Below are positions 413-51,977 of a DNA stretch of 64,000 nucleotides, piece after piece; positions within the stretch are counted from its first letter, which is position 1, and each line of letters opens with the position of its first letter. The notes beneath the pieces were generated by a model. The model was not told the origin of the DNA. It worked only from the letters and a program-made list of their open reading frames with translations, and did not search any database. Origin of the DNA: a virus; IMG/VR virus record IMGVR_UViG_3300028920_000027, positions 118,336 through 182,335 of that record; one strand, 5' to 3'. A program made the position numbers and the translations under genes.

Positions 413-450
413 GGTACCGGGGGGGCTTTTAGGCCCCTGAGGATTTCAAC
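413..450 (+). CRISPR. Solitary CRISPR repeat (array-1 type)
   Basis: GGTACCGGGGGGGCTTTTAGGCCCCTGAGGATTTCAAC versus array-1 consensus GGTACCAGGGGCTTCTAGRCCCCTGAGGATTTCAAC. The last 20 nt match exactly; no second repeat follows. Confidence 0.85.
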
Positions 451-1878: not shown

Positions 1879-1952
1879 GTCCCCGTAGCTCAATCTGGCA
1901 GAGCACCCGCTTCTAGTTCGGGTTGTTGCAGGTTCAATTCCTGTCGGGGGCC
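1879..1952 (+). tRNA. tRNA with CUA anticodon (amber-suppressor type)
   Basis: Cloverleaf: acceptor GTCCCCG/CGGGGGC, D-arm GCTC-AATCTGGCA-GAGC, anticodon arm CCCGC-TTCTAGT-TCGGG (31-39 mismatch), T-arm GCAGG-TTCAATT-CCTGT. Followed by CCCCA, so CCA is one base out of register. Confidence 0.75.
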
Positions 1953-1955
1953 CCC

Positions 1956-3212: not shown

Positions 3213-4099
3213 CCCATCTTTTTCAGCTCCTTTGCCATGTCACATTCATCGCCGGGGAGCATCGATCGGGGCTCAGGCTCGGGCCCCTCATCCGATTTCA
3301 TCAGCGCCTTGACGTGGGTATGTGCCGGGCTGCGGAACCGACTTACCTCGTCGGCCCCCTCGCGTTGAGCAGACCACACCACAATCGACGGAATATCACC
3401 AGGAGAAGTAGACTTCTCGATGTCAACCTGTCTCACGACGTATGAGACAGGTTGGTTCGTGACCATGCGTCGCCTGGCGTCTCTCACCGGGTTCGACATG
3501 AACACCACCATGCCAACCGTCAGCCGTTCGACAGGAAGGTGCACGACGGTGGAGGGGCCCACCGTGGTCTCGCTCTTCAAGTGGTTAGCGATCTCTCCAG
3601 GAAGAGGTGTGTTCCCCCGCTTCGTGCCCGGCTGGGTCGGCGTGATGAACGTTCGGGATAGGACCTGGGTTCCTTCCTGCGCTTTGACGTCTTCAGCCAG
3701 CCTTGCCTGCGATTGTTCCAGCGTGAAGGGCTGTACGCCCATGAGTTGCAGCTGCCCTCTCCAGAAGAGTCGGCGAACGCGCGAAAGGTCCGAGCCGGAG
3801 CCGGGGTCGTGGGCGCCCAATTGGTGAGCTTGGTGGAAGAATCCTGTACCCGGGATCCCCGTGTCGTGGTTAACCACAACTGCTGTGGTTAACGGGCGAC
3901 CTCGGGTGTGGTCTTCCTCGGCAATCATCGCGAGGGCATCAGGAAGGCTGCACCCCTTGGGAGTGTCCTTCAGGGCGTCGGCGATGGCACCATAGGTGGT
4001 GAGCAGCTTGAGGTGGTGGGCGAAGTAGTGGACAATCCCTCGAACCTGGGCAGCGTAGACAGCTACCCGCACGTCATCGTGCAGACCTTCGATAGGCAT
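3167..4099 (-). CDS. Hypothetical protein, possible N-terminal winged-helix-like domain
   Basis: TTYGAIADAL..EEDHTRGRPLTTAVVVNHDTGIPGTGFF. Confidence 0.5.
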   Translation of the reverse strand: MPIEGLHDDVRVAVYAAQVRGIVHYFAHHLKLLTTYGAIADALKDTPKGCSLPDALAMIAEEDHTRGRPLTTAVVVNHDTGIPGTGFFHQAHQLGAHDPGSGSDLSRVRRLFWRGQLQLMGVQPFTLEQSQARLAEDVKAQEGTQVLSRTFITPTQPGTKRGNTPLPGEIANHLKSETTVGPSTVVHLPVERLTVGMVVFMSNPVRDARRRMVTNQPVSYVVRQVDIEKSTSPGDIPSIVVWSAQREGADEVSRFRSPAHTHVKALMKSDEGPEPEPRSMLPGDECDMAKELKKMGYGVSPDGEKQAEVK

Positions 4100-10098: not shown

Positions 10099-10317
10099 AT
10101 GCCGCGCAACGATTTGGTTGAAATGGAGGGGGTGGTTGGCCGACAGCTCGGCGGGGGTCAATATCGCATCACCACGGGCGACGGGGAAGAGATCCGCGCC
10201 CAACTCAACGGCCGAATGCGCAGGAATCATATCCGCGTACTGCCTGGAGACCGCGTGAAAGTCGCGGTCTCCCCCTACGACAAGAGCCACGGGATGATCA
10301 CCTACCGTTTCAAGTAG
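10099..10317 (+). CDS. infA: Translation initiation factor IF-1
   Basis: 72 aa: EMEGVV..GRMRRNHIRVLPGDRVKVAVSPYDKSHGMITYRFK. Confidence 0.95.
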   Translation: MPRNDLVEMEGVVGRQLGGGQYRITTGDGEEIRAQLNGRMRRNHIRVLPGDRVKVAVSPYDKSHGMITYRFK

Positions 10318-10329
10318 ACCCGAAACAAC

Positions 10330-11140
10330 ATGAACACCATCGTCATCGGCGACATTCACGGCTGTCTGGACGAGTTTCAAGCACTCGTGGAGAAGGTCGC
10401 CCTCAAGCCCGAGGACCATGTGATCTGCCTGGGCGATTTCATGGACAAGGGGCCGGACCCTGCCGGTTGTGTGCGGTTCGCGCGTACGCATGGGTTCCAG
10501 TCTGTCCAAGGCAACCACGAGGACAAGCACCTCCGCTGGCGGCGTCACGAAGCCCGCAGGATCCTGGATCCCTCCTACACAACCCCATGACGTTGGATGT
10601 TGCCAAACAGCAAGACAATACCGCTCTGAGCGGCGACGACATCGACTGGCTCAGTAACCTGCCCCCATCGTCGAGGCTGATGGTTGGGTGGCCGTCCACG
10701 GCGGCTTTCTACCAGGCAAGACCCCACGGGAACAGGCCGCTGACCGCAAGATCCGCTCGACCATCGTACGCGTGAGGTGGCTCACCCCCGAAGGCGAGCA
10801 CTGGGCCGAGTTATGGGACCAGCATTTCAACGTGGTCTACGGCCACGAGGCACACAGCCTCAGCCGCCCCTACGACGTCCAAGCCCCCAGCGGCGCCCGG
10901 ACCGTGGGTATCGACACGGGCTGTGTCCACGGGGGCCACCTGACCGCCTTCGTGGTTGAAAACGACGGGGCCACCCACTTCGTCCAGGTGCCGGCGGCCA
11001 AGTGCTACCACCGACACCACGGGCTACGGGCTAGACGCTCCCACAGGGTGGGGGGCGGGAAGGGTGGCACCCCCACGGGAGTGTGGGGTTGCGGGGTAGA
11101 CGTAGGTTGCAGGCATCACAGGTTGTCGAGCGAAACATAG
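10330..11140 (+). pseudogene. Metallophosphoesterase (ApaH/PrpA-like) split by two frameshifts
   Basis: IGDIHG, LGDFMDKGP and GNHE in frame 1; WLSNLP in frame 2; AVHGG, VYGH and GIDTGCVHGGHLTA in frame 3. Shifts near 10580 and 10665. Confidence 0.85.
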
Positions 11141-20957: not shown

Positions 20958-22742
20958 GGTACCAGGGGCTTCTAGGCCCCTGAGGATTTCAACCTCTCGA
21001 CTTGCCTCACTCAGAGCAGCCAGGGAAGGGGGTACCAGGGGCTTCTAGGCCCCTGAGGATTTCAACTTCGACTACATCGTCGTTGCGGTAGAGGGTGATA
21101 CGAGGTACCAGGGGCTTCTAGGCCCCTGAGGATTTCAACCCGTTCTTCATCCTTCGCACCACCTCACCCGCCCCCGGGTACCAGGGGCTTCTAGACCCCT
21201 GAGGATTTAAACAGAAGCAAGAAGGCGCCTGAGCCAACTGCGGCGCGGTACCAGGGGCTTCTAGACCCCTGAGGATTTCAACACGCACGTCAATGCGCCA
21301 ATCGCAAGCGACCCGAAGAGGTACCAGGGGCTTCTAGACCCCTGAGGATTTCAACATCGCCAAGCTACGGGAAGAGCTCAAGCGCGCCGAGGGTACCAGG
21401 GTCTTCTAGACCCCTGAGGATTTCCTCGGGCTCTTCTTCTTTCCGGACGTCACCGACGGTACCAGGGGCTTCTAGGTCCCTGAGGATTTCAACTGCCTCG
21501 GTACCAGGGGCTTCTAGACCCCTGAGGATTTCAACTAGGCGATCAGGAAGTCGTCGCCGACGCGCATGAAAAGAGTACCAGGGGCTTCTAGACCCCTGAG
21601 GATTTCAACAGGATGGAGGAGAACTAGGGGCTTATAGACCCCTGAGGATTTCAACACTCTTGAGTGCCTCAAGCACTGCCGCGTTCGACGGTACCGCGTT
21701 CGACGGTACCAGGGGCTTCTAGACCCCTGAGGATTTCAACGCCTTCCGAGCATCGAGCAGAACTTCGCGATGGTACCAGGGGCTTTCTAGGCCCCTGAGG
21801 ATTTCAACGATCAGGCGCTGGGACAAGCAGGGATGCCCCTCGGTGGGGTACCAGGGGCTCCAGGCCCCTGAGGATTTCAACAGCGTGTTCAAGAAGACGT
21901 AGGGAACCCCTTGGTGGGTACCAGGGGCTTCCAGGCCCCTGAGGATTTCAACCTGCTGCTAATAGGTCAAAAGGGTCCAGTATCTCCGCAGATATCAGGG
22001 TCTTCTAGACCCCTGAGGATTTCAACGAGTATTGAAACGCACTTGGCCACTGGCTCCTTCTAGGGTACCAGGGTCTTCTAGACCCCTGAGGATTTCAACC
22101 TGTCGTGGCCGGCGGCCGTTGCGAGTTCGCCGGGTGGTACCAGGGGTTTCTAGACCCCTGAGGATTTCAACGTCAGTGTCCAGGGCCGACATGAGCCCCT
22201 TGGGTACCAGGGGCTTCTAGACCCCTGAGGATTTCAACGACTTCCTCGCCGAACTGCGAGAGGCGGTAGAGTAGGTACCAGGGGCTTCCAGGCCCCTGAG
22301 GATTTCAATGGGAGGACGCCAGTCTTCTTGAGTGCCTTTTTCGACGCAGTACCAGGGGCTTCTAGACCCCTGAGGATTTCAACGGATACACGACCCCCTG
22401 TGGGCCGAAATCGACAAGCTCGGTGGCACCAGGGGCTTCTAGGCCCCTGAGGATTTCAACAAGAAGCTCCAGGGCGATCCCGTGCCGGGCAGCACGGTAA
22501 GGGGCTTCTAGGCCCCTGAGGATTTCAACGAGTAGCCTCGGACAGGCTCAATCCCCATCAACGAGGGTATCAGGGGCTCCTAGACCCCTGAGGATTTCAA
22601 CCCACATGGGGCGTCGAGCCCGAGCGAGCGCCAGGTGGCACCAGGGCACGGCAAGGGGTCGGAACCGGGCTTCCAGGGGCTTCCACGACCGCTTTGACAG
22701 TCGAGGGGTACCAGGGGCACACAAGCCCCTGAGGATTCCAAG
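20958..22742 (+). CRISPR. CRISPR array 1, about 25 repeats of 36 nt (GGTACCAGGGGCTTCTAGRCCCCTGAGGATTTCAAC)
   Basis: Regular repeats with mostly 31-41-nt unique spacers; AGGGG/CCCCT hairpin; degeneration increases toward the 3' end. Confidence 0.98.
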
Positions 22743-22779: not shown

Positions 22780-22824
22780 AAGGGCACCTTCGGATTTCCT
22801 TCCGAAGGTGCCCTTTTCTTTTTT
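22780..22824 (+). terminator. Rho-independent terminator after array 1
   Basis: 15-bp stem AAGGGCACCTTCGGA/TCCGAAGGTGCCCTT followed by a T-tract. Confidence 0.9.
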
Positions 22825-22860
22825 GGGAAAGGCTTGAACGTTCCTGGTGTATAAAGTTTC

Positions 22861-23571
22861 ATGTACCCCACAACTGCAACGTTCGTCGTTGGGATCGACG
22901 GCGAGAGAGCTTGCTACTCCAACCCGGCGTTTCGCTCAGAACGCTACACATACCCCGTGATCACCCCACCGGCAGCGGCTGGCATCATGGACAACACTTG
23001 GTGGCGGCCGGGAGTACGGTGGGTCGTCGAACGAATCGACGTCTTGAAGCCGATCCAAACCTATACACAAACTGTCAACGAGATCAAGGTCTGCCCTCAG
23101 ACCTTGGAATCGGCTCTGAAATATCGGGTAGCAAAACTGCTACCGAGCTCTGAAGCAGTTCAGGTTCAAGGAGGGGTTAACATTGAAACCAATCGCACCT
23201 TGAGGCGCACCACGATGTTGTACGACGTATCATACAACATCTGGATGCGGGCTGTATGTGCCGACTGGAGGCTCGCCAAGAAAGCCGAAGCGAGCACCTG
23301 CCGCTTCCTTCTTTCCGGTCGTAGCTTCCGACCTCGATGCCTTGGGATGAGAGAGTTGGATGCCAAGGTACGGCTGGTCACTATGCTCGACCACGATGGG
23401 GTGGCCCACACTGACCTCCCTCGCCCCATCCCACTGACTCAGGACCTTGGGTGGATGGTACACAGCTACGTCTGGGAAAACGGCGTCCGCAAACAGGTCG
23501 GGTTGTTCCATGCCTACCTGAACGCTGGCACGCTACTCGTGCCCCCAGAACCAATGAGGATGGTGTCATGA
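22861..23571 (+). CDS. cas5: Type I-C-like Cas5 (Cas5c/Cas5d)
   Basis: ACYSNP..ERYTYPVITPPAAAGI..WWRPGVRWVVERIDVLKPI..NE..LGMRE. Confidence 0.9.
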   Translation: MYPTTATFVVGIDGERACYSNPAFRSERYTYPVITPPAAAGIMDNTWWRPGVRWVVERIDVLKPIQTYTQTVNEIKVCPQTLESALKYRVAKLLPSSEAVQVQGGVNIETNRTLRRTTMLYDVSYNIWMRAVCADWRLAKKAEASTCRFLLSGRSFRPRCLGMRELDAKVRLVTMLDHDGVAHTDLPRPIPLTQDLGWMVHSYVWENGVRKQVGLFHAYLNAGTLLVPPEPMRMVS

Positions 23572-24770
23572 TCCTAGAGACCTTGTATGAATTTGCCAAG
23601 CTGCATGGACTCGTGCCCAGCGTGCTTCGGAAACGACACGCCAATTACACTTTCCACCTCGATCCGAAGGGGTGTTTGCGTGAGTTCTCTGACGAGCGAC
23701 AAGTGATGGCAGACGCGAAGGCCAAACGGTCCAGCAATATCCAACCCAACTTGCTCGACAATGTGGGGTACACATTCGGTTTGGGCAAGCATGGACCCAA
23801 ACGACAGGAAGCCTGGTTGGAGGCCCTACGCGCCTTCAAGTCCATGGCGCCGGTTGCAACCTTCGCTCAAAAGCCTCTACCTGATGGCATCCTCAAGATT
23901 CTTGCCAAAAACTCGTCCAAGGTTGTGGCCTTCACCGTGGGAGGGGAGTCCCCCTATGAACACCCTGACATCGTTGAGCACCTGAACGCTCAAGAGGAAG
24001 GTGACTACATCTGCCGCATCACTGGACGGAGCTGTAGTCCAGGATTCGTCCCCAACATCAGCAACCTACCCCCCAACGGAAGCTTGCAGAACTTCGTGGG
24101 GTTCAATGCGTCCGCTACACAGTTCGATGGGCGTGAAAACAAATGCTGCTTTGTCATGCATCGCGAAGTTCGCGAAGGCATCATTGCAGCCATTGACCAT
24201 CTCGCGCGCTATGAGAACAAGGAGCGCCCGTCGGCCATCGTTGCAACGAAGCGCTTTCACTCCAAGAGTGAGGTAAACTCTGCTCGGAGTGGGCCCGTCC
24301 CCACGACTCTGCTCTTCTCCCTGGAACCAGAGTTCGACGTTAGCCCTCTGATGGTCCTGCTTAGGGGGTTGAGGTCAGAAGGGGAAACCCCAGAGGAACG
24401 ACTGGAGGAAGGTCGACAAGCTCATAAGGCTGCCCTGGAAACCCTGGTCTCATGGACGGGCTACTCTGGGGATCTCTATGCTCTGACCCTTTGCGCTGAC
24501 GGGGCCTGCCGACGGACGGCTGTACTGGACTTCACTACCATCCCTCTAGCAGAGATCCCGGCTCGGATGGAGTCGTTCACTCATGCATCTGGCCCGTACC
24601 CCCTACGCTGGCGGCTGGCCGAAATGCCCAACTACACGCTCGCGTGGCGCTTCATGCGGGCTGTCTTGGCCGGTGACCCTCTACCTCCCGCAATCCTGGC
24701 ACACGCACTTCGGCAGCCGCTCAAGAACGAGCAGCTGTTGACCACTCTCACAGCTTTTCAAAGCCTTTAG
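23568..24770 (+). CDS. cas8c: Cas8c-like large subunit lacking the C-terminal Cas11 domain
   Basis: MILETLYEF start; KRSSNIQPNLL-DNVGYTFG; C.ITG; located between cas5 and cas7. Confidence 0.8.
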   Translation: MILETLYEFAKLHGLVPSVLRKRHANYTFHLDPKGCLREFSDERQVMADAKAKRSSNIQPNLLDNVGYTFGLGKHGPKRQEAWLEALRAFKSMAPVATFAQKPLPDGILKILAKNSSKVVAFTVGGESPYEHPDIVEHLNAQEEGDYICRITGRSCSPGFVPNISNLPPNGSLQNFVGFNASATQFDGRENKCCFVMHREVREGIIAAIDHLARYENKERPSAIVATKRFHSKSEVNSARSGPVPTTLLFSLEPEFDVSPLMVLLRGLRSEGETPEERLEEGRQAHKAALETLVSWTGYSGDLYALTLCADGACRRTAVLDFTTIPLAEIPARMESFTHASGPYPLRWRLAEMPNYTLAWRFMRAVLAGDPLPPAILAHALRQPLKNEQLLTTLTAFQSL

Positions 24771-24784
24771 CCAAAGAGGACCTA

Positions 24785-25261
24785 ATGCCTGAAACCACCC
24801 CTGAAACCACCCCTGAAACCCCAACCACTCCGACCAATGGTCACAGGATTTCAGAAAAAAGGCTGGCCCAGCTAAGACACCCCAACCCGACCTTTCACCT
24901 GGGCCGTGCCATGGCTCGTGCTGTGGTCATCTACAGGTACGCGCAAGGCAGTGCCGCAGCAGCATCCCTGGAGAATAAGGTCGTGTCCGCGGGGTCTCGC
25001 CCCTTGGAAATCGTTACCCAGATTCTCAACCGGACTCAACGAGCCATCGCGTACTTGAGTCGTGGGGAGGCCCGCCAAGGGGCGGCAATCGACATCCATA
25101 ACTATGAAGAAGCAGTGGAGTTGATCGATGCCCAAGCGCTGCCCCGCACGTTCCAGGCGCAGGACCAGGTCCTGTTCTGGAACGGGTACAACAGCGAGAA
25201 GAATTGCATCCGCGCCCGACAACGTATTCAGGCTGCGGAATCGGCAAACAAAGGGGGCTAA
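24785..25261 (+). CDS. cas11: Stand-alone Cas11 small subunit (homolog of the Cas8c C-terminal domain)
   Basis: FHLGRAMA..P.EI..LPRTFQAQDQVLFWNGY resembles the Cas8c C-terminus; own RBS (AGAGGA); different frame from cas8c. Confidence 0.75.
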   Translation: MPETTPETTPETPTTPTNGHRISEKRLAQLRHPNPTFHLGRAMARAVVIYRYAQGSAAAASLENKVVSAGSRPLEIVTQILNRTQRAIAYLSRGEARQGAAIDIHNYEEAVELIDAQALPRTFQAQDQVLFWNGYNSEKNCIRARQRIQAAESANKGG

Positions 25262-25333
25262 CTCTCCCTGCGGATTGACTCTCACCATCAGGGGCGACCC
25301 TGCGGATTGACCCAAATGTAAATGTGGAGAAAA

Positions 25334-26335
25334 ATGACTAAGACAACTACGACTAAGGCAACTACTCTTCCCGCCCTCGATGGACTTTTGGTAATCGAGG
25401 CCCACAACGACGCCCTCAATATCGACCCCGATGTCGGAGTGCCCCGCACCAACCCCATCTCGGGAAAGGGGGAGGTTAGCGCTGAATGCATAAAGGCCAA
25501 AATCCGGCGGTCCGCTATGCGGCTCAACCCGACTTTGGTGCCGTTCTACCACCGTGGCGCCGTCCACCAGGACCACATCGAGCAGGCATACGAAGCTGCC
25601 GGCGCCATCGTCAAGACTGCGAAGAAGGCGTCCAAGAAGACTGCGAAGGCTGAGGCCCCCGACATCGAGGATACTGAGGCCCCCGACACCGAGGATGCCG
25701 AGGATAACACCATCACGATCGACACCATCAAAGGCAACGCCGAGCTGTGCCGCATCTTCTTCGACGTCTCTTGGTTTGGACTGGTGGTCACCAAGCCGGG
25801 TCGCGGTCAGATCCGGGGACCATTCTCATTCGGGATTGGCGAGACCGTCTATCCTGTGAATCTGGATGAGCGCCTCCTGACCCGCCAGACGGTCACCAAC
25901 CGAGAACGGTCAGACAAGCAGAAGGGTGCCAACCAGGAGTTCGGACGCAAGACCGTTGTGACCCATGGGGTCTACCTCGTACACTGGCACTTCGACCCCT
26001 TCTGCGCCGACCAGAACGGGCTCACGGAGCAGGACCTGGCGGAGTTCATCGAGGCCATGCTCCACATGTTCCGCAACGACCAGTCGTCAGCACGGAACAA
26101 CGTGACACTGCGGAAGGCTTATGTCTTCGAGCACGCGAGTCCCTTCCGGGACGCCGAACCGGTCGAGCTTTTAGAGCAAATCAAGGTCACGGCCGAGAAC
26201 CCCGACACCGCGGTCTCTTGGGACGCCTACACAGTCGAGGTCCCGGCAGACTTGCCTGAGACGATCAAGCTCCACGTCCTCAAGGACGGCCTCACCATCA
26301 ACAATCCCTGGGTCAAGGCATCCGCTGCCGAATAA
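25334..26335 (+). CDS. cas7: Type I-C-like Cas7 (Csd2 family)
   Basis: NDALNIDPDVGVPRTNPISGKGEVSAECIKAKIRR..FFDVSWFG..GQIRGPFSF..FGRKTVVTHGVY..MFRNDQSSAR. Confidence 0.92.
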   Translation: MTKTTTTKATTLPALDGLLVIEAHNDALNIDPDVGVPRTNPISGKGEVSAECIKAKIRRSAMRLNPTLVPFYHRGAVHQDHIEQAYEAAGAIVKTAKKASKKTAKAEAPDIEDTEAPDTEDAEDNTITIDTIKGNAELCRIFFDVSWFGLVVTKPGRGQIRGPFSFGIGETVYPVNLDERLLTRQTVTNRERSDKQKGANQEFGRKTVVTHGVYLVHWHFDPFCADQNGLTEQDLAEFIEAMLHMFRNDQSSARNNVTLRKAYVFEHASPFRDAEPVELLEQIKVTAENPDTAVSWDAYTVEVPADLPETIKLHVLKDGLTINNPWVKASAAE

Positions 26336-26350
26336 TAGCCCGCTACCATG

Positions 26351-26383
26351 CCAGGGAGGGGGGTTTTTGACCCCCCTCCCTGG
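26351..26383. terminator. Perfect 13-bp GC-rich hairpin between cas7 and the helicase gene
   Basis: CCAGGGAGGGGGG-TTTTTGA-CCCCCCTCCCTGG followed by TGTAGTTTTT. Confidence 0.7.
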
Positions 26384-26403
26384 TGTAGTTTTTGGGAACG
26401 TTC

Positions 26404-28917
26404 ATGAGATTCCGACACTATCAGATTCACGGATTCAGCGCGGCGACGAGTCGTCGTTGGCGTTTCATCTACCTATGCTGGGCTGTAGCTTCCGGTAAGA
26501 CAGCGTTCACCCATGCCTACCTGGCCGAAGTTTTCCGCAACGGCTGGCACTCGCACGCAGTCATTGTGGGGCCCTACGAGCCCATCCGCAACGGGTTCGA
26601 CACCAGCAAACTGGGTGACGATAAGCGCGAGTTCTGCATGGGGGGTGTCACTGTCCGGGCTTGGGCAGGGATGGTTCGAGAGTTGAAGAGAGGGTCCTCC
26701 CAAGCCGGCCAAGCCGGCCGCATTGAGTCGACCGTTCGGGAGTTGGTCAGCTACTTGCTGAACCCTCGCCCCACGGATGAAGCCACGGGAAGGCCTTACG
26801 CTGTCAGCGTGTGTACGCAGACAGCTCTTCAGTTAATCCTTCATATGGACCAGCTACCGGCTGACATGAGTCACGTGCTGTTCGTCATCGACGAAGCTCA
26901 GGGTATCGGTGCTGACTGTACCAACCGTGTCGTGAACACCCTGATTTCTCGGGGAACTCGCTTCATCCTTGCATCGGGGTCACCGTACCGGGACGACAAC
27001 CGAAATGTCCTCCCCGACCCCAATGACCCAGATGTTCTCATTCTCTCCCGGTCTCTGGCAGAGCAGATTCACGAGGGGTATGCCCCTCGTGTTAAGTTCG
27101 AGGTCGAGGTCGTTGACTGCGATGGGGACACCTATGAGTCCCGTCAGCAGCAGATGATCGACCATGTGGTGGCCGACTTCCAACCTGGCCAGAAGAAAGT
27201 CATCCGTGCTGTCCCTGCGCGGGGTGCCATGTACGACAGGGACGGTGAGGATGCCGATGCCGATGACTTCTCGGAGAACGTCGATGACGTGAGAGTAGGG
27301 GTGCGACTCCGGGACCTGGCGCTCAGGGCTTTTACTGAAAGGGGTTTACGATTTCGGGATGCCACGAGCTACCCAGGCAACCACGGCGACGACTGGCTGG
27401 AGTCCGAGCGTCGGGTTCGCGACTTCAATGATTCGGAAGTTGATGTGGTGTGGGGGATCAACCGCATCTACTGCGGCATGGATTGGGCTCTGGCGAACAC
27501 AGTGTGCTGCCTAGACTTCCCCACGACTTTACCCTTGATCGTCCAGCTCCTCGGGCGTGGCATGAGGTACAAGGGCGGCCGGCACGGAGGTGGGTATGCC
27601 AACTACCCGGAGCAGTACCTCGAACGGACGCTTCTCAAAATCTACGTTCCCGGCCGACGTGACGGAAGTGAGCGCTTCTTTCGGCACGACATGGCCCAGG
27701 TAGCTGTCAAGATCGGAGCTGTCCTCGCCACAGTAGCTCTCCCGGACGGCTTGACCGCCAAGCTGGATATGCACCGAGCTTTGAGGTCCCCTCTCAGCGA
27801 CGCTTCGGTCGTCGAAGGCACTGGTAGGGGGAGTGCCAACGAAAGCGAGATCGCCGAAGCCGCTAGTCAACACTTCATGATCCACTACGGACGGCGGGAG
27901 TGCACCGTTGGTGAAGCTCGTGATCAGCTCATGCGTGCATACCGCATTCGTCGCCAAAGGCAGGGTCTCGAGGTGTCGGATGAAGACGTGGAGGCAATCA
28001 ACCTCTTACTCCACCGTTTCATCAGCGAACGCAACGAACGAAACCCGTTGGATCGTGAAAGCCAGCGACGCATGGGAGAAGCCCATGACCGCGCCGTTGA
28101 AGCCGCTGCTCGACGCCATCCCCACAACCCGAGACGGTTGGTACAGGAAGCCTATCGCCGCGTGATTGACGAGTACAGCGAGATGCGGATCGTAACCGCT
28201 GAATCACCTCTTCTCAGCACCATTGTGCGATTCGTGATCGACCTCGACGATGGGACAGCAGGCGGCATTGCACAAAGGTTGGAACAAGAGTCTCGACCTC
28301 TACATGAGCAAGCTGTGCGCCACTGGGCTATGGCCTACTGGACCAACAACGGAGCCTTCCCTGACACCGACAGTGGCCCCGTCCAGGAAGACCCTCGCGA
28401 AGATTGGTCTCGCGTCATTGCCGCTTTACAAGGGGGTTATCGAGGACTACCCTCACACCCTTCTGTGGAAGACCTGGTGCGTTCCCATCAGATGAGTGAT
28501 GGCGACGTGTTGCATCTATTCAGGCTCTGCCCCGACTTATTGCCATCGGACTTGACGGTGGGGTGGACGTCAGACGTGAGTCTGCAATTCTACTACGATC
28601 GGTACCGAGACATGAGGCGCACCGCCGAGGCGTTACCTCCACACACTTGGAATAGGCTCGTTGACTACTTGCTCCAGCAATCAACCATTCGGCTGGGCTC
28701 CCTGTTGAACCTATTTCGAGAAACTCCAGTGACAGTTGACCTTCGGGCCCGACGGCCCTGGTATCTGTTCTGGCACTCCGTGAGCCGCGCTTCTTCGGAA
28801 GGTAGGGACCTCGACCTGCGGACATTGCGAACCTGGATTCGACGGGTTCGCAATGGAGCTGTCTCTATTGGCCAGGTCTACGACGACGACAGTTCAGCTA
28901 CCACCGTAGTGGTGTAA
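26404..28917 (+). CDS. SF2 helicase (DEAQ) with no HD nuclease domain and a long uncharacterised C-terminus, in the cas3 position
   Basis: Motif I AVASGKT within the first ~35 aa; II VIDEAQ; III SGSPYRDD; VI QLLGRGMR. Confidence 0.85.
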   Translation: MRFRHYQIHGFSAATSRRWRFIYLCWAVASGKTAFTHAYLAEVFRNGWHSHAVIVGPYEPIRNGFDTSKLGDDKREFCMGGVTVRAWAGMVRELKRGSSQAGQAGRIESTVRELVSYLLNPRPTDEATGRPYAVSVCTQTALQLILHMDQLPADMSHVLFVIDEAQGIGADCTNRVVNTLISRGTRFILASGSPYRDDNRNVLPDPNDPDVLILSRSLAEQIHEGYAPRVKFEVEVVDCDGDTYESRQQQMIDHVVADFQPGQKKVIRAVPARGAMYDRDGEDADADDFSENVDDVRVGVRLRDLALRAFTERGLRFRDATSYPGNHGDDWLESERRVRDFNDSEVDVVWGINRIYCGMDWALANTVCCLDFPTTLPLIVQLLGRGMRYKGGRHGGGYANYPEQYLERTLLKIYVPGRRDGSERFFRHDMAQVAVKIGAVLATVALPDGLTAKLDMHRALRSPLSDASVVEGTGRGSANESEIAEAASQHFMIHYGRRECTVGEARDQLMRAYRIRRQRQGLEVSDEDVEAINLLLHRFISERNERNPLDRESQRRMGEAHDRAVEAAARRHPHNPRRLVQEAYRRVIDEYSEMRIVTAESPLLSTIVRFVIDLDDGTAGGIAQRLEQESRPLHEQAVRHWAMAYWTNNGAFPDTDSGPVQEDPREDWSRVIAALQGGYRGLPSHPSVEDLVRSHQMSDGDVLHLFRLCPDLLPSDLTVGWTSDVSLQFYYDRYRDMRRTAEALPPHTWNRLVDYLLQQSTIRLGSLLNLFRETPVTVDLRARRPWYLFWHSVSRASSEGRDLDLRTLRTWIRRVRNGAVSIGQVYDDDSSATTVVV

Positions 28918-28920
28918 GGT

Positions 28921-29026
28921 AGCGAGGGGTTCGGTGATACCGAAACCCCCAACACCTCTCGCAGCCCAAATTTTCAAGGGGGTTCCCACCCCCTTGGTCT
29001 TTGACAGCACATAACCGCTCGCATCC
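28921..29026 (+). promoter_or_regulatory. Leader of CRISPR array 2
   Basis: GCGAGGGG..ACCCCC..ACCTCTCGCA and CAAGGGGGT..CTTTGACA, as in leader 1. Confidence 0.6.
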
Positions 29027-29597
29027 CAATTCTTGCCCTTGAGGATTCCAACAGCTCCTCCAGAACACCCGGGGCGAGTCGGCCGTACAGGAACAAGGGC
29101 AATTCTTGCCCTTGAGGATTCCAACCACAACTTCGAGTTGGTTCACTACGGGGAGGGGCAAGGGCAATTCTTGCCCTTGAGGATTCCAACCATGGTTCGG
29201 CGAACGAACTTGCATTTCTCGTACTGCGGGACAAGGGCAATTCTTGCCCTTGAGGATTCCAATGATCTGCTGTGAGACAAAGCTAAAATGCCCTCTCTGA
29301 AACAAGGGCAGTTGCCCTTGAGGATTCCAACATCGCCCACGAGACCAAGGCAGACTTCGACGAATGGCAAGACAAGGGCAGTCCATGCCCTGAGGATTCC
29401 AACGTGGCTCCCGCGACCCGGTCGAACACCTCGAGGAAGGAGACAGTCTTGGCCCTTGAGGATTCCAACCTGCGGTAATGGCACAAGCAGACGTTTTACC
29501 GTCGTGAGACAAGGGCCTTGCCCTTGAGGATTCCAACATCCAAAACCACTCTGGGAGCTACGGCTACATCGTATGTGTCTTTGCCCTTGAGGATTCA
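29027..29597 (+). CRISPR. CRISPR array 2, 9 repeats (core ACAAGGGCAATTCTTGCCCTTGAGGATTCCAAC)
   Basis: First repeat 5'-truncated, later repeats degenerate; 8 unique spacers of roughly 33-40 nt. Confidence 0.95.
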
Positions 29598-29803
29598 TGA
29601 GGGAGAATCCCGCGACCGGTGTATAGTTCTGCTCAGGCCATGCTGACGTTGGCCTGCACCCCTGAGCCCGGCACCCCACGGCGGGCTCCCTCAACGGGGC
29701 GAAGAGGGTCCGAAACGCTCTCACTGCCGGTGTTGGTGATTCCATTCCCGAGTGGAGTCCGGCGTGGGGGCGGGTGCCACTCGGTCGAAGTGGAGTCCAC
29801 AAC

Positions 29804-30577
29804 ATGACCAACTCTCGCAAGCAGCGGGCCAAGAAGCTCGCGAAGAAGCTCCGCATTTCCCACCAGGGCGCCACCAACCTCATGCGCCAGCAGCAGGACC
29901 AAGACCTCCGGGACGCGCCCCCGTGGTACCTTCGCACATTCGAGGTTCGCGAAAACGGTCAACTGCTTCCACTTCCGCCCACATCCTACAGCGAGATGCT
30001 GGAGCAGATCCGCGTCTTCATGGTTGCTAACTCCGATTACCAGCTGTCCCTTGCGGACGAGCCCCTCGGCTTGCGAGAGGTTCTACGCCGCAGCGCCCTG
30101 GCCACGAGTCGTTTCAACAAGGGCCTGATCTTCGAGGTCGAGGGCTCGCAGCTCCTAGCCGAGCCCGCAGGAGAGTGGTCCGATCAAAAAGCTCCCCACA
30201 CCAAGCTTCAAGACAAGATCGAAGCCGCTCTCAAGGACGTCAACGTTTTTGCAACGCCAACCTACACGGAGATTCGGTTCGAGAACGCCGACGGTAGTCT
30301 CTGGGGATCCACGTCCGAGTGGGCACCTGAGGTCACGGCCAAAACGGACACCCTGCTCCAACGCAAGATGTGGGTCATCCGGCGGGCGTGGACCATATAC
30401 CGTAACCAGGTCTCACGCCACGAGGCTCCGGAAGACCGCCGCTACGACCAACCCGATCCCGAAGATCGAAAGGAGCGGGAGACCCTCTGGGAGGCTCGCA
30501 GTACCTGGTACAGGGAGGGGGTGTTCGAGCGCTTTGGGCACCCCGCACGCATCGTGCTTCAGCCGAGCACCCTTTAG
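29804..30577 (+). CDS. Hypothetical protein
   Basis: GGAG RBS upstream; basic N-terminus. Confidence 0.65.
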   Translation: MTNSRKQRAKKLAKKLRISHQGATNLMRQQQDQDLRDAPPWYLRTFEVRENGQLLPLPPTSYSEMLEQIRVFMVANSDYQLSLADEPLGLREVLRRSALATSRFNKGLIFEVEGSQLLAEPAGEWSDQKAPHTKLQDKIEAALKDVNVFATPTYTEIRFENADGSLWGSTSEWAPEVTAKTDTLLQRKMWVIRRAWTIYRNQVSRHEAPEDRRYDQPDPEDRKERETLWEARSTWYREGVFERFGHPARIVLQPSTL

Positions 30578-49090: not shown

Positions 49091-49889
49091 GCCCCGCGTC
49101 CGTTCGACTGAACTGGCGCTTCAAAGAGAGGGTGAGCACACCGTTTCTGGAAGGGCGTTCGTGAGCCCGGCCCTCGACCTGCCGGACGGGGAACTACAGT
49201 CGTGGTTTGATCGCGCGTTCATCGACGATGACGACATTGAGCGCCTACCTCTTCTCCGAGAAGCGTTGTCCGCCGGTCCTGTGGTCGTAGACACGTATCC
49301 CGATTGCGACTCGCGTGGCGAACTCCACGCCTATGTCTTGGCGCCTGCCGTGACGGAGGCTCCGTTGTTTGCTTGCGTGTTGGCGACGACGGAGGCAGTC
49401 AAGATGCTGCTGAGAGAGCCGCCACATGCGATTCTCGAAACTGCAACTTTTCAGGTGGTCGGCGACCGCTTCACCACCGACTCCGTCCCTGCCGCTTTGC
49501 AGAACTGGGCGAGCCGAGTATTCGGCTTGGATGGGGTCGAATTCACGCTGCACCCATGGACAGAGCACGCGGACGCCGGGCTTCCTGATGTGTCAGAGAA
49601 GCAGATGCCCAGCTCGGGCACCGTTTGCGTGGCTGAATGGCGGCAGAGCACCGCCGCTGGTCAGTTCGGCTGGTATAGAACTAACCTCGGCTACGAGTTG
49701 CACGAGTACCGTCACGACGACACCACGGGAAGCACCAGCTCCCGCGTGCTTACTGTGGTGTATAAACACGGGAACTGCTTTGTTGGTCCGTGCCAACGGT
49801 GCGGGTCCGAGCACACAAGCCCCGTCAGTCCGGTTGGGCCATGGTGCTGTGCCCACTGCGGGGAGGGAGTAGAGGAACCCAATGTGTAG
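49074..49889 (+). CDS. Hypothetical protein with C-terminal Zn ribbon
   Basis: CQRCG..CCAHCG. Confidence 0.6.
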   Translation: MTEKIEPRVRSTELALQREGEHTVSGRAFVSPALDLPDGELQSWFDRAFIDDDDIERLPLLREALSAGPVVVDTYPDCDSRGELHAYVLAPAVTEAPLFACVLATTEAVKMLLREPPHAILETATFQVVGDRFTTDSVPAALQNWASRVFGLDGVEFTLHPWTEHADAGLPDVSEKQMPSSGTVCVAEWRQSTAAGQFGWYRTNLGYELHEYRHDDTTGSTSSRVLTVVYKHGNCFVGPCQRCGSEHTSPVSPVGPWCCAHCGEGVEEPNV

Positions 49890-50322
49890 CCACAAACATA
49901 CGTTCGAAGCCCGTACTAGGGGCTTTACGGGACCGGTGAGCGATAGCGAGAACAAAGCAGCGCACGGCTGCGTGTGTATCACCGTTGAGTGCCGCGATTG
50001 CGGGGCTCGCCGCGAGGAGAATCGCAACTGGCTCCACGTGGAGCGCGGGCCATGGGGGCCGAGCCGAGACGAGCGGCGGGCCAAGGTCGAGCAGCTCCAG
50101 CGTCGGTTACCGCCGATCCCTCCCACCGTCACCCTGATCCGGGCAGACGGTGAGACGGCTACGCTGACTCCCGACGGCGAGGGGATGCTCTTCGTCTCCT
50201 CATCTGCTGAGGTCAGCCAGCGCGAGCATTGTTCGCTCGTGGGGCTCTACCCACACCTTGACGCACTCATTGCTCGACGGCGGGCAGTGATGGCGCTCCA
50301 GGCGGAGGAGCGCGCAATCTGA
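49882..50322 (+). CDS. Hypothetical protein with Cys/His motifs
   Basis: CSHKH..CRDCG. Confidence 0.6.
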   Translation: MCSHKHTFEARTRGFTGPVSDSENKAAHGCVCITVECRDCGARREENRNWLHVERGPWGPSRDERRAKVEQLQRRLPPIPPTVTLIRADGETATLTPDGEGMLFVSSSAEVSQREHCSLVGLYPHLDALIARRRAVMALQAEERAI

Positions 50323-50393
50323 GAGTTCGGCGAGCGCAAACGCTATGCGACTGGGAGCGGGAGCACGCCGACCTTGCTGCCGCCGTCGCCGAG

Positions 50394-50732
50394 GTGCGGG
50401 CTCGAGTCGGGTTCGTGCCTTGTCAGCAGGGAGAACGACCGGTGGTATACTACGCAGTGTGCAACGCAAACGGGCCAATCAGCGTGGAGCTAGGCTCCAC
50501 CTTAGACGACGCCCTAGCGGCGTGGGAGGCGCTCGACGGACGCCGCGTCATCGACGACGCGAAGGCGGATGTTGAAGACGCGCTCGGCATCGCCGGCGCG
50601 TGCATGTCCGAGACGGAGTTCGATGCAGCGATGGAGGATTCTGGTGCTGAGTTCGTGCGGGAGCTCGGCGAAGTGGACCAGCACGGCCGCACAATGGTCG
50701 GTGACTGGTACCTCTGGGTGGTAGAATTATGA
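50394..50732 (+). CDS. Acidic hypothetical protein (start uncertain)
   Basis: ORF track. Confidence 0.5.
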   Translation: MRARVGFVPCQQGERPVVYYAVCNANGPISVELGSTLDDALAAWEALDGRRVIDDAKADVEDALGIAGACMSETEFDAAMEDSGAEFVRELGEVDQHGRTMVGDWYLWVVEL

Positions 50733-51256
50733 CCCACTACCTGCACCCGTCCGCAGACCTGGCTCTGCGGGCTATCAAGACCGCCCCGCCTGGAAATGTG
50801 AGAGCTCTCCTGTTGGAGGGCCCACCCGGATGCGGCAAGACGAGCTTCGCCGAGCACCTTGCTCGCGAGCTCGGCGCGCAACTGGTTTACCAGTTGCTCC
50901 ACTCCTGGTCTGACGACCAGGAGCTATTCCGCGGCGTCAACGTTGTTGCCGCTGTAGCGGGCGATGCTGATAGCGTCGCACAGCCCGGGGTGCTGGCACT
51001 GGCTGCCAGCGCATCCCACGCGGGGATCGTCGTGGTGTGCCTCGACGAGCTGGATAAGGCTCCAGATCGAGTAGAGGCCCTACTCCTTGATGTCCTTCAG
51101 TCGGGGCGCGTGCCAATTGCGCCCGGAGTGCATGAGCAACTCTGCCTTGACGGCAGGCGTCAGCGTTCTGTCGGTCGCAGACAGACGAATGGCTCCGCCA
51201 ACCAGACGCTCACTTGCAAGGGGTCGGCAGCGCCGAATCAATCCTTGCCGCGTTGA
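50729..51256 (+). pseudogene. AAA+ ATPase (MoxR/AAA_5-like), C-terminally truncated
   Basis: Walker A GPPGCGKT and Walker B VCLDELDKA present; similarity ends before the expected sensor-1 and Arg-finger motifs. Confidence 0.75.
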
Positions 51257-51263
51257 GGTTGCT

Positions 51264-51977
51264 ATGACTCACTACCACCCAAGCGCGGCTCTGGCCCCGG
51301 TGCTGCTCGGACTAGACGAGAACATCGAGCGGCGCCTCTGTAAGTCGTGTGGGACAGAGGTGAAGGTGGGCATCTTTTTCGGGATTGAGTGGGCCCATTT
51401 CCGGTGTTGGGCTTCTGACTGGCGCGGACATGTCGTCATGCACCGTACGTCCATGCGGACACGGTTCCTGAGAACACGACCGAGTACCGTTTTGCCGGAA
51501 ATCTCCCGGAGGTTGAGGCGGAAGATTCTCGCATCGCGTCGTTGCTCTAGACTGGAAGCGATCCAGGTGCTGGCGAGGACCTACCCTGACCTGCGACGAG
51601 GCTTTGCTGTACCGACCGTCCCACAGTCCACCATCGAAGCCGCCGGCTTCACCCCAGAAGCTCTCTTCGAGGAAGTCTGTGCAGTTTGCTACGATGCGAT
51701 GGAGGTACAAGGCACATCCGCCAGACAAGGTAGCCAAAGCGCTTCAGGGGAGTTGATGCCTGACTTGTGCGAGTGGAACCCCGAGCACGGTGTCGCTGCC
51801 ACCGAACGGCGCTTCGACAACGGTACCGTTGAGCGGGCAGGGTGCTCAAACCCTGCTCAACTGATAGTTGGGGCCAAAGGAAAGTGGCGACTTTGCCGAA
51901 GATGCGCATCACTGCCTTATTTTCGTCGCTATCGGGTCCGGATTGCCATCGGTGCGACTGCTGGGCGAAATGATTGA
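51264..51977 (+). CDS. Hypothetical protein with Cys clusters
   Basis: CKSCG..C; CEW..C..LCRRC. Confidence 0.5.
   Translation: MTHYHPSAALAPVLLGLDENIERRLCKSCGTEVKVGIFFGIEWAHFRCWASDWRGHVVMHRTSMRTRFLRTRPSTVLPEISRRLRRKILASRRCSRLEAIQVLARTYPDLRRGFAVPTVPQSTIEAAGFTPEALFEEVCAVCYDAMEVQGTSARQGSQSASGELMPDLCEWNPEHGVAATERRFDNGTVERAGCSNPAQLIVGAKGKWRLCRRCASLPYFRRYRVRIAIGATAGRND

What the first reader, a model, noticed from the sequence alone, without database searches (positions are those of the whole stretch)
22861..28917. Minimal phage type I-C-like system with no adaptation genes and no recognisable nuclease
Seen: cas5c-cas8c-cas11-cas7c plus a helicase; no cas1/2/4/6 and no HD or HNH domain. Known: canonical I-C has Cas3 (HD plus SF2) upstream of cas5; nuclease-less phage type I and type IV systems are thought to silence targets or recruit host nucleases. 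Inference: an RNA-guided DNA-binding/unwinding complex for transcriptional interference or inter-MGE competition, possibly an unclassified I-C variant.
Basis: partly seen in the sequence, partly recalled or inferred. Interest (0 to 1): 0.8.

Follow-up and report, generated by a model that had tools for sequence, protein, structure and literature searches.

The report
Huge-phage Cas3-less type I-C with helicase
A fragment of a very large phage carries a stripped-down type I-C CRISPR system in which the usual DNA-shredding Cas3 is replaced by an unrelated motor protein with no detectable nuclease. This layout was first reported in huge phages in 2020, and how it works has not been tested.

Summary
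Window 22861-28917 encodes Cas5c, Cas8c (N-part), a separately encoded Cas11c, Cas7c and an 837-aa SF2 ATPase. Two CRISPR arrays flank it (20958-22742 and 29017-29600). The 182-kb virus record (CheckV 38% complete) has no Cas1, Cas2, Cas4, Cas3 core, Cas3-HD or generic HD match. A relative of 301 kb with terminal repeats also lacks Cas1 and Cas3.

The helicase is not Cas3. It matches no Cas3 or DinG model, and its ATPase motifs are intact. Its core looks most like FANCM, RadD and INO80-type motors. The C-terminal half holds one ~70-aa module that is absent from Pfam, and no conserved catalytic residues. That half was never folded on its own.

Four distant homologues (26-32% identity) sit directly after cas7 in other loci. 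The five Cas-linked helicases form one clade. Their non-Cas relatives sit beside DNA methyltransferases or are fused to an Mrr nuclease.

The layout is not new. Al-Shayeb et al. 2020 described a huge-phage "type I-C variant" with a helicase instead of Cas3. I found no mechanistic study.

Most likely reading: nuclease-free, helicase-assisted interference resembling type IV-A. A nuclease acting in trans is not excluded.

Other first-stage notes of this scan describe this same stretch.

The parts
415..450 (+). Solitary copy of the array-1 repeat, 20 kb upstream of the array
   Evidence: One mismatch to the repeat core. Sequence read. No second repeat lies nearby.
20958..22742 (+). CRISPR array 1. 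25 repeats of 36 nt (GGTACCAGGGGCTTCTAGRCCCCTGAGGATTTCAAC). Spacers are mostly 30-41 nt, with a few collapsed units. The last repeat is degenerate.
   Evidence: 24 core matches against 0 expected in shuffles.
22780..22825 (+). Terminator-like hairpin (15-bp stem plus T-run) between array 1 and cas5
22861..23571 (+). cas5c (236 aa). Probable pre-crRNA endoribonuclease and Cascade subunit.
   Evidence: TIGR01876 at 95.2 bits, above the cut-off of 85. PDB 3kg4 at E 1.6e-24; also matches D. vulgaris and N. lactamica I-C Cas5.
23568..24770 (+). cas8c, large subunit without its Cas11-like C-terminus (400 aa from the ATG that overlaps the cas5 stop)
   Evidence: Pfam Csd1 positions 15-412 of 559. Start read. 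Profile hits the I-C Cas8c chain 8dej_I at E 1.8e-15.
24785..25261 (+). cas11c encoded as a separate gene (158 aa, with a PETT-rich N-terminal linker)
   Evidence: Csd1 positions 450-556. Aligns with the C-termini of the unsplit Cas8 of L001 and L025. Profile hits the Cas11c chain 7kha_K at E 1e-7.
25253..25310 (+). Two degenerate repeat-like units (hairpin plus CTGCGGATTGAC), ending just before the cas7 ATG
   Evidence: Sequence read. L002 has a comparable unit before its cas7. L036 has a full 6-repeat array at the same position.
25322..26335 (+). cas7c backbone subunit (337 aa)
   Evidence: Pfam Cas_Cas7 at E 1.2e-44. I-C Cas7 chain 7kha_B at E 1.4e-32.
26348..26396 (+). 18-bp GC-rich hairpin plus T-run between cas7 and the helicase (terminator- or attenuator-like)
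   Evidence: L001 has an analogous hairpin between cas7 and its helicase.
26404..28917 (+). Cas-linked SF2 ATPase (837 aa). Residues 1-440 are a ResIII-type two-RecA core. Residues 441-620 are a poorly conserved helical linker. Residues 621-700 hold one ~70-aa 'R' module. Residues 701-837 are a non-conserved tail.
29017..29600 (+). CRISPR array 2. About 9 repeats with different, heterogeneous stems (for example GGGCAATTCTTGCCC) but the same 3' handle, TGAGGATTCCAAC.

Best explanation

Shown:
- Four type I-C Cascade genes are present: cas5c, a truncated cas8c, a stand-alone cas11c and cas7c.
- Two arrays flank them.
- A dedicated SF2 ATPase follows that is neither Cas3 nor DinG and has intact ATPase motifs.
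- No nuclease motif is conserved in that ATPase.
- It belongs to a clade that sits directly after cas7 in at least five loci.

Inferred, step 1 (guide production): Cas5c cuts the pre-crRNA at the 3' base of the repeat hairpin. This leaves the constant handle (..AGGATTTCAAC) on the 5' side of each spacer. The hairpin sequence varies from repeat to repeat while its pairing and the handle are kept.

Inferred, step 2 (target binding): the Cas5-Cas8-Cas11-Cas7-crRNA complex forms an R-loop on double-stranded DNA of rival phages or of the host.

Inferred, step 3 (effector): the R-loop complex recruits the ATPase. The ATPase moves along the target DNA using ATP. Interference comes from blocking or displacing RNA polymerase or replisomes around the site, without a cut made by the system itself. 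This would work like type IV-A Cascade with DinG, but the system is not a member of that type.
For: Identity of the Cascade genes.

Arrays with guides.

Repeat hairpins: across 123 distinct repeats from 14 loci, 67 different 5' arms still form a mean 7.0-bp stem abutting the handle. A swap control gave 3.6 +/- 0.16 bp, with a maximum of 4.03 in 200 permutations.

No Cas3, HD, Cas1, Cas2 or Cas4 in the 182-kb record. No cas3_core, Cas3_HD or Cas1 in the 301,550-bp relative with direct terminal repeats.

The helicase:
- No Cas3 or DinG model hit in NCBIfam or PADLOC.
- The family profile hits HsdR, XPB and RadD in the PDB. No Cas3 appears among the 60 hits shown.
- In the five Cas-linked members, G-K of Walker A, D-E of motif II and Q..GR..R.K of motif VI are invariant.
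- Beyond residue 440 the only invariant residues are L441, G474, I596, P602, L633, P653, A674, G678, L682 and D711. That is no catalytic constellation.

Conserved adjacency of cas7 and the helicase in L001, L002, L003 and L025. The five Cas-linked helicases form one clade (SH-aLRT 85; one label change; none of 500 shuffles as low).

Literature: the same layout is reported in PMC7162821. It is listed among candidate systems lacking nuclease activity in 10.1101/2023.06.23.546257.
Against: - No experiment exists, and no protospacer was found for any spacer in the window. The kind of target is therefore unknown.
- The record covers about 38% of the genome, so a nuclease partner elsewhere in this phage cannot be excluded.
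- Residues 441-837 were modelled poorly (pLDDT mostly 40-70) and were never searched as a separate domain.
- Relatives of this helicase family occur fused to an Mrr nuclease or beside methyltransferases. The family's ancestral setting is therefore restriction-like, which favours cooperation with a nuclease.
- The structural preference for dsDNA translocases over Cas3 is a Z difference of about 5 on a shared SF2 fold. It is a lead, not proof.
- The Cas-linked clade has long branches, so long-branch attraction could inflate its support.
Confidence: 0.5

Rival explanations
1. The target is destroyed by a nuclease acting in trans. Cascade marks the target and the ATPase unwinds or reels the DNA. 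The exposed DNA is then cut by a nuclease encoded elsewhere: a phage enzyme or a host enzyme such as RecBCD.
For: - The record encodes a 5'-3' exonuclease (679-aa ORF), a calcineurin-like phosphoesterase (Metallophos family) and several homing-type nucleases.
- The helicase family's non-Cas members are fused to Mrr_cat_2 (P0009) or sit next to N6/N4 methyltransferases. That points to an ancestry working with restriction-like nucleases.
- A sister locus with the same crRNA handle (L031) has a weak DUF559/Vsr-like match in its Cas8-position protein. This lineage may therefore pick up nucleases in other ways.
Against: - No nuclease gene is conserved next to the module. The gene after the helicase differs between the window and L002.
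- The candidate phage nucleases lie about 85 kb or more away, and several belong to replication or homing classes.
- The DUF559 hit is marginal (21.0 bits against a cut-off of 20.6).
Confidence: 0.27
2. The system depends on host Cas3. The phage Cascade binds targets and borrows the host's type I-C Cas3 for degradation and the host's Cas1-Cas2 for spacer uptake. The phage ATPase would be an accessory.
For: The Cascade subunits are clearly I-C-like. The repeat handle resembles the I-C handle; this resemblance is from my own knowledge and was not tested here. Al-Shayeb et al. suggest that phage systems lacking parts may use host Cas proteins (PMC7162821; recalled from the paper's general discussion, and only partly seen).
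Against: - A scan of one genome from each of 185,579 bacterial and archaeal species found no array with this handle pair. The handle was found only in phage-like contigs.
- The ATPase occupies the effector slot in five loci and has conserved ATPase motifs.
- Repeats that differ from one another within an array argue against recent Cas1-Cas2 copying.
Confidence: 0.08
3. The module does not act mainly in interference. It may be a regulatory or anti-defence module (self- or host-gene regulation, or a sink for host crRNAs), or a decaying remnant.
For: - Some array units are collapsed or degenerate.
- Repeat-like elements sit before cas7.
- In L036 an array directly upstream of cas7 holds a spacer that matches its own cas7 with two mismatches, at spacer positions 1 and 20. 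That could be autoregulation.
- A solitary repeat lies at 415-450.
Against: - All five ORFs are intact, with conserved motifs.
- 30 or more spacers are kept, with compensatory hairpin changes.
- The architecture is conserved at 26-32% helicase identity, which implies long purifying selection.
- No spacer in the window matches the 182-kb record itself.
Confidence: 0.1

Closest known systems
[quoted passage not shown] 2020, Nature 578:425, PMC7162821, Extended Data Fig. 9)
   Same: - Huge-phage setting.
- Cas5d-like Cas5 with no Cas6.
- No Cas1 or Cas2.
- An unidentified helicase in place of Cas3.
- All of these features are reproduced here.
   Different: - I could not establish whether this record is one of the paper's two phages.
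- No second (CasPhi) system was found; the only arrays in the 182 kb are those flanking this module. No CasPhi model was available to test directly.
- The five loci found here have helicases only 26-32% identical to the window's. The variant is therefore broader than 'two related phages'.
Canonical type I-C CRISPR-Cas (Desulfovibrio vulgaris and Neisseria lactamica Cascade, PDB 7KHA, 8DEJ, 8G9S)
   Same: Cas5c, Cas8c, Cas11c and Cas7c are each most similar to the I-C subunits among solved structures. It has no Cas6, and the repeat is a hairpin followed by a short handle.
   Different: - No Cas3 (HD plus DExH), and no Cas1, Cas2 or Cas4.
- Cas11c is a separate gene rather than an internal translation product of cas8c. 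The latter is established knowledge for I-C and was not tested here.
- Cas8c and Cas7c score below the NCBIfam equivalog cut-offs (24.4 against 218.65, and 146.2 against 182.25).
- Arrays lie on both sides of the cas genes, and their repeat stems are heterogeneous.
Type IV-A CRISPR-Cas (Csf Cascade plus DinG helicase)
   Same: It is encoded on a mobile element and lacks an adaptation module. The effector slot holds a helicase without a nuclease. The proposed outcome is nuclease-free silencing of competitors.
Cas3-less type I derivatives with fused nucleases or transposon links (Cas8-HNH, Cas5-HNH, and a I-C with a Cas8-Cas5 fusion lacking Cas3; Altae-Tran et al. 2023, PMC10910872)
   Same: A type I Cascade that has lost cas3 and gained another effector principle.
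   Different: No HNH or other nuclease insertion was detected in Cas5 or Cas8 here. The added component is a separate ATPase.

Membership tests
Type I-C CRISPR-Cas (canonical) | Cas5c (Cas5d) family subunit / pre-crRNA endonuclease | tested here: met
   TIGR01876 at 95.2 bits against a cut-off of 85. PDB 3kg4 at E 1.6e-24. The catalytic residues themselves were not checked.
Type I-C CRISPR-Cas (canonical) | Cas8c/Csd1 large subunit | tested here: inconclusive
   Pfam Csd1 at 48.1 bits is above its cut-off of 27. The profile hits 8dej_I at E 1.8e-15. NCBIfam TIGR01863 scores only 24.4 bits against a cut-off of 218.65. This is a divergent, truncated form.
Type I-C CRISPR-Cas (canonical) | Cas7c/Csd2 backbone | tested here: met
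   Pfam Cas_Cas7 at E 1.2e-44. 7kha_B at E 1.4e-32. It is below the TIGR02589 cut-off (146.2 against 182.25).
Type I-C CRISPR-Cas (canonical) | Cas11c made from within cas8c (no separate gene) | tested here: not met
   Separate ORF at 24785-25261, in another frame, 14 nt after the cas8 stop. Also split in L002 and L003. Fused in L001 and L025.
Type I-C CRISPR-Cas (canonical) | Cas3 with an HD nuclease and a DExH helicase | tested here: not met
   No cas3_core, Cas3_HD or HD match in the 182-kb record. No cas3_core or Cas3_HD in the 301-kb relative with terminal repeats. The record is a fragment (38%).
Type I-C CRISPR-Cas (canonical) | Cas1-Cas2-Cas4 adaptation module | tested here: not met
   No Cas1, Cas2 or Cas4 in the record. 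No Cas1 in the relative.
[quoted passage not shown] | Encoded by a huge phage | tested here: met
   IMG/VR virus record of 182 kb at 38% estimated completeness. The record carries replication genes, two of them with inteins. The relative is a 301,550-bp virus genome with terminal repeats.
[quoted passage not shown] | A non-Cas3 helicase in place of Cas3, next to cas5-cas8-cas7, without Cas1 or Cas2 | tested here: met
   The same order is seen in L001, L002, L003 and L025.
[quoted passage not shown] | A co-resident CasPhi (Cas12j) system, reported for the two published phages | not testable with these tools
   No CasPhi model or reference sequence was to hand. No further array exists in the 182 kb. 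62% of the genome is missing.
Cas3 helicase-nuclease | Match to Cas3 core or HD models | tested here: not met
Type IV-A (DinG-associated) | Csf1/2/3/5 Cascade and a DinG helicase | tested here: not met

The most novel reading that the evidence does not exclude
Here Cascade guides a FANCM/RadD/Snf2-like DNA translocase rather than a nuclease. The R-loop complex loads a motor that strips polymerases or remodels replication forks on rival phage or host DNA. The guides come from arrays whose repeat hairpins have diversified, with pairing kept and the handle fixed. That diversification may stabilise arrays that no longer receive new spacers. In relatives the guides are aimed at the cas genes of competing phages. 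This would be a third way, besides Cas3 shredding and type IV DinG, for class 1 CRISPR effectors to act on DNA.
Probability: 0.3. Interest if true: 0.8.

Novelty: new member of a known kind. Interest (0 to 1): 0.5.

Why it matters
The layout was published in 2020, but I found no follow-up on how it works. It is one of very few type I-derived systems in which the Cas3 slot holds a different motor protein.

If interference is truly nuclease-free, the system would be a compact, natural type I "CRISPRi plus motor". It would also be a second, independent case beside type IV-A of a mobile element swapping DNA cutting for helicase-assisted silencing.

- A defined clade of Cas-linked ATPases, with their ATPase motifs and a single R module.
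- Their ancestry among restriction-like, methyltransferase-linked helicases.
- A relative with terminal repeats that lacks Cas3 and Cas1.
- Repeat hairpins that covary beside a fixed handle.
- Spacers in sister arrays that match the cas genes of related phages.

Tried and rejected
- Single-sequence AlphaFold2 of the helicase was unusable (mean pLDDT 36.9).
- Word-seeded homologue searches returned almost nothing. Only the exhaustive HMMER search found the family.
- The search for related loci with Cas7 in viral contigs found nothing.
- blastn of the locus against 50,697 phage records gave no match.
- The array against phage records gave only a 26-nt chance match spanning a repeat-spacer junction (E 0.01).
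- Spacer targets:
  - no self-match in the 182 kb;
  - no exact 24-mer match for three spacers in viral or metagenome contigs;
  - array 1 against the 301-kb relative gave only repeat-to-repeat matches;
  - no spacer in the window matched any fetched locus.
- Complex prediction (Cas8 plus Cas11 plus helicase residues 441-837) returned 'no answer' with a score of 0.00. This is not evidence either way.
- The protein downstream of the helicase (29774-30577) is unrelated to the gene at the same position in L002. It was therefore rejected as a conserved partner.
- Pfam at E <= 10 did not recognise the R module, even in proteins with many copies of it. My guess that it is the Pfam 'HA' helicase-associated domain is unsupported.
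- The Atlas search with the C-terminal half gave only low TM scores (0.30 or less by the query). The nearest unnamed clusters were mostly from Planctomycetota.
- The Foldseek and VIA searches were dominated by the helicase core. Residues 463-837 were barely tested.
- I considered that the TAG stop of cas8 might be read through by the amber-suppressor tRNA to fuse Cas8 and Cas11. I rejected this because cas11 is in a different frame.

Full report
**What is there**

The window is bases 118336-182335 of a 182,335-bp IMG/VR virus record. CheckV puts the record at 38% complete, so this is a fragment of a very large phage. The rest of the record holds replication genes. These include an intein-bearing clamp-loader subunit, a RecD2-like helicase, a 5'-3' exonuclease domain and homing endonucleases.

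Five co-oriented ORFs lie on the + strand at 22861-28917:
- Cas5c. TIGR01876 scores 95.2 bits, above its cut-off of 85. PDB 3kg4 matches at E 1.6e-24.
- Cas8c/Csd1. It covers only profile positions 15-412 of 559. Its likely start is the ATG at 23568, which overlaps the cas5 stop.
- A 158-aa protein. It matches only the Csd1 C-terminus (positions 450-556). It aligns with the C-termini of the unsplit Cas8 proteins of relatives. As a profile it hits the D. vulgaris Cas11c chain 7kha_K at E 1e-7.
- Cas7c. Pfam gives E 1.2e-44 and 7kha_B gives E 1.4e-32.
- An 837-aa protein with SF2 motifs: ASGKT, DEAQ, SGSP and QLLGRGMR.

- Array 1 (20958-22742) has 25 repeats of 36 nt. A terminator-like hairpin follows it.
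- Array 2 (29017-29600) has about 9 repeats. Their stems differ from those of array 1, but the 3' handle TGAGGATT(T/C)CAAC is the same.
- A solitary repeat lies at 415-450.
- An 18-bp hairpin with a T-run separates cas7 from the ATPase gene. L001 has an analogous hairpin. The ATPase may therefore be expressed at a lower level or separately.

**Is a nuclease or adaptation module hidden somewhere?**

None of the five proteins hits an HD, HNH, Cas3, DinG or other nuclease model in Pfam, NCBIfam or PADLOC.

Six-frame HMM searches of the 182-kb record found no Cas1, Cas2, Cas4, cas3_core, Cas3_HD or generic HD. The only HNH hits lie 38 kb or more upstream, in short open frames of 61-197 aa.

The record is incomplete, so I looked for a more complete relative. 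The closest Cas-linked homologue of the ATPase lies on IMGVR_UViG_3300036760_000522. This contig is 301,550 bp and has direct terminal repeats. It also lacks cas3_core, Cas3_HD and Cas1. That makes it unlikely that the system needs its own Cas3.

**The ATPase**

Word-seeded searches found almost nothing. An exhaustive HMMER search of 1.84 billion representatives found 1082 hits. They fall into two kinds:
- 22 of the 150 listed hits share at least part of the two-RecA core, and most of these span it.
- 128 of the 150 listed hits match only residues ~621-700 of the query, usually several times over.

This ~70-aa 'R' module has the consensus PLT..I..W......G.WP...SG.......TW..ID.AL..G.RGLPGGSSL..LL. 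It is not in Pfam. Its nearest Atlas clusters are unnamed proteins, mostly from Planctomycetota. This is a weak lead to the host.

The family core has these motifs: GSGKT, APQ..IE.GF, DEAHH, TATP.R.DG, EG.DWP and VQL.GRA.R.K. Its profile hits HsdR, XPB/Rad25 and RadD in the PDB. No Cas3 appears among the 60 hits shown.

With a 24-sequence alignment, AlphaFold2 gave a usable core (residues 1-440, pLDDT about 80-90) and R module (about 80-92). The linker and tail were weak.

Among the five Cas-linked members the ATPase residues are invariant. Beyond residue 440 the invariant positions are L, G, I, P, L, P, A, G, L and one D. No HD, PD-(D/E)xK, HNH or GIY-YIG-like pattern is conserved.

A cryptic fold is therefore unlikely but not excluded.

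**Conservation of the association**

Four homologues that are 26-32% identical to the window protein lie immediately after cas7, in cas5-cas8-(cas11)-cas7-ATPase loci:
- L001: 301-kb phage, Cas8 unsplit.
- L002: Cas8 plus a separate Cas11, as in the window.
- L003: a separate Cas11-like ORF.
- L025: Cas8 unsplit.

In a maximum-likelihood tree of the core, the five Cas-linked proteins form one clade (SH-aLRT 85; one label change; none of 500 shuffles as low). Their branches are long, so long-branch attraction is a caveat.

Each Cas-linked member has one R module. Non-Cas relatives have two to seven. Those relatives sit beside N6/N4 DNA methyltransferase genes. One protein, P0009, is an Mrr nuclease plus helicase plus 14 matched stretches to the R module.

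The simplest history is a single capture of a restriction-like helicase by a phage I-C Cascade that had lost Cas3.

**The guides**

A pattern that requires two copies of the handle at array spacing gave these results:
- one viral contig, the 301-kb relative;
- 12 short metagenome contigs, one of them next to a terminase gene;
- no hit in one genome from each of 185,579 bacterial and archaeal species.

Across these arrays the handle is constant, but the stem differs from repeat to repeat even within one array. In L032 there are 18 repeats with 17 different stems.

The 123 distinct repeats have 67 different 5' arms. They still form a mean 7.0-bp stem abutting the handle, against 3.6 +/- 0.16 bp when the 5' halves are swapped between repeats. 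This covariation is good evidence that hairpin-plus-handle processing is under selection, as expected for Cas5c.

Such heterogeneous repeats also do not look like recent Cas1-Cas2 products, which fits the missing adaptation genes.

**Targets**

No spacer in the window matches any of the following:
- the record itself;
- phage records;
- viral or metagenome contigs, tested with three spacers as exact 24-mers;
- the 301-kb relative, tested with array 1;
- any fetched locus.

Sister arrays are more informative.
- L036 and L033 carry a spacer that matches the conserved EGNPNGDPMRN-coding stretch of L031's cas7 at 35 of 35 positions. The same spacer has two mismatches to L036's own cas7, at spacer positions 1 and 20.
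- An L032 spacer matches the Cas8-position gene of L031 at 33 of 34 positions.

These loci (L031, L036) carry the handle but show no ATPase after cas7. They may be a different sub-variant. With that caveat, the pattern fits phage-against-phage targeting of each other's CRISPR modules, or autoregulation.

**Mechanism**

Shown:
- an intact I-C-type Cascade gene set with guides;
- a conserved, probably active ATPase in the effector slot;
- no nuclease detected.

Inferred:
- Cas5c processing;
- R-loop formation;
- recruitment of the ATPase;
- interference by ATP-driven action on DNA without cleavage by the system itself.

I put about 0.5 on the nuclease-free reading. I put about 0.27 on cooperation with a nuclease acting in trans, which the family's restriction-like relatives make plausible. 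The remainder goes to dependence on host Cas3 or a mainly regulatory role. A complex prediction for the ATPase C-terminus with Cas8 and Cas11 returned no answer.

**Comparison and novelty**

Al-Shayeb et al. [quoted passage not shown] They show the locus and a helicase tree in Extended Data Fig. 9.

[quoted passage not shown] Altae-Tran et al. 2023 describe other Cas3-less type I derivatives.

I found no mechanistic study in the searchable library.

The finding is therefore a correct reading of a real system that is interesting but already reported. It is a new member of a known kind.

- the characterisation of the ATPase family and its single-origin clade;
- the absence of Cas3 and Cas1 in a relative with terminal repeats;
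- the split cas8/cas11 state in three of five loci;
- the covarying repeat stems;
- the spacers in sister arrays that match cas genes.

**Earlier notes of this scan**

Other first-stage notes describe this same stretch. They cover the ResIII-like helicase with its hairpin, the separate cas11, the two arrays, and the repeat-like pair before cas7. I checked each against the sequence and the tools, and they agree with what I found.

Noticed in passing
window 20958-22742 and 29017-29600; L001 8524-10874; L002 25-713; L027, L029, L030, L032, L034, L037: Repeats within single arrays have different but self-complementary stems next to an invariant handle (CTGAGGATTTCAAC). 123 distinct repeats carry 67 different 5' arms. 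The mean stem is 7.0 bp, against 3.6 bp in a swap control. Arrays with such hypervariable repeats are unusual and suggest long evolution without Cas1-Cas2 copying.
   Followed up: partly
L036 3464-3498 (spacer), L036 3713-3746, L031 4682-4716, L030 1345-1379; L032 spacer against L031 4415-4448: Spacers in sister arrays match cas7 (the conserved NPNGDP-coding stretch) and the Cas8-position gene of related loci. L036's own cas7 differs from its spacer at positions 1 and 20. This suggests phage-against-phage targeting of CRISPR modules, or autoregulation.
   Followed up: partly
window 25253-25310; L002 about 3335-3370; L036 3213-3608: Repeat-like hairpin-plus-handle units sit directly upstream of cas7. 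There are two degenerate units in the window, one in L002, and a full 6-repeat array in L036. They could be a processing site or a feedback element.
   Followed up: partly
L031 71-2239 and 2911-4605: A sister locus with the same handle has an unknown 722-aa ORF upstream of cas5. Its Cas8-position protein has a marginal C-terminal DUF559 / REase_MTES_1575 (Vsr-like endonuclease) match (21.0 bits against a cut-off of 20.6). No ATPase is seen after cas7.
   Followed up: partly
window 415-450: A solitary array-1-type repeat lies 20 kb from the array. It could be a lone crRNA-like or regulatory RNA gene.
   Followed up: no
window 1879-1954: A tRNA with a CUA anticodon (amber suppressor; ARAGORN labels it tRNA-Pyl). 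This is a possible sign of TAG reassignment or suppression late in infection, as reported for some huge phages. That report is from my own knowledge.
   Followed up: no
window 22836-22843 and 26396-26403: The palindrome GAACGTTC occurs 5 times in the window, against 0.9 expected. It lies just upstream of both the cas5 ATG and the ATPase ATG. Each copy is preceded by TTTTTGGGAA. This could be a shared regulatory site.
   Followed up: partly
P0009; L021-L024 (P0036, P0043): The ~70-aa R module is absent from Pfam. It occurs up to 14 times in tandem in an Mrr-nuclease-helicase fusion. It also occurs in helicases that sit next to N6/N4 DNA methyltransferases. This looks like an undescribed restriction-like helicase family, probably from Planctomycetota.
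   Followed up: partly
G000:C1:37007-40351 and 49107-51881 (L013, L016): Inteins with LAGLIDADG domains interrupt large phage genes, one of them a DNA polymerase III clamp-loader subunit.
   Followed up: no
L025 about 10130-10334: The most divergent Cas-linked locus appears to start an array with a different handle (..GGGAATCGCTCGCAAG). The handle is therefore not universal in this clade.
   Followed up: no
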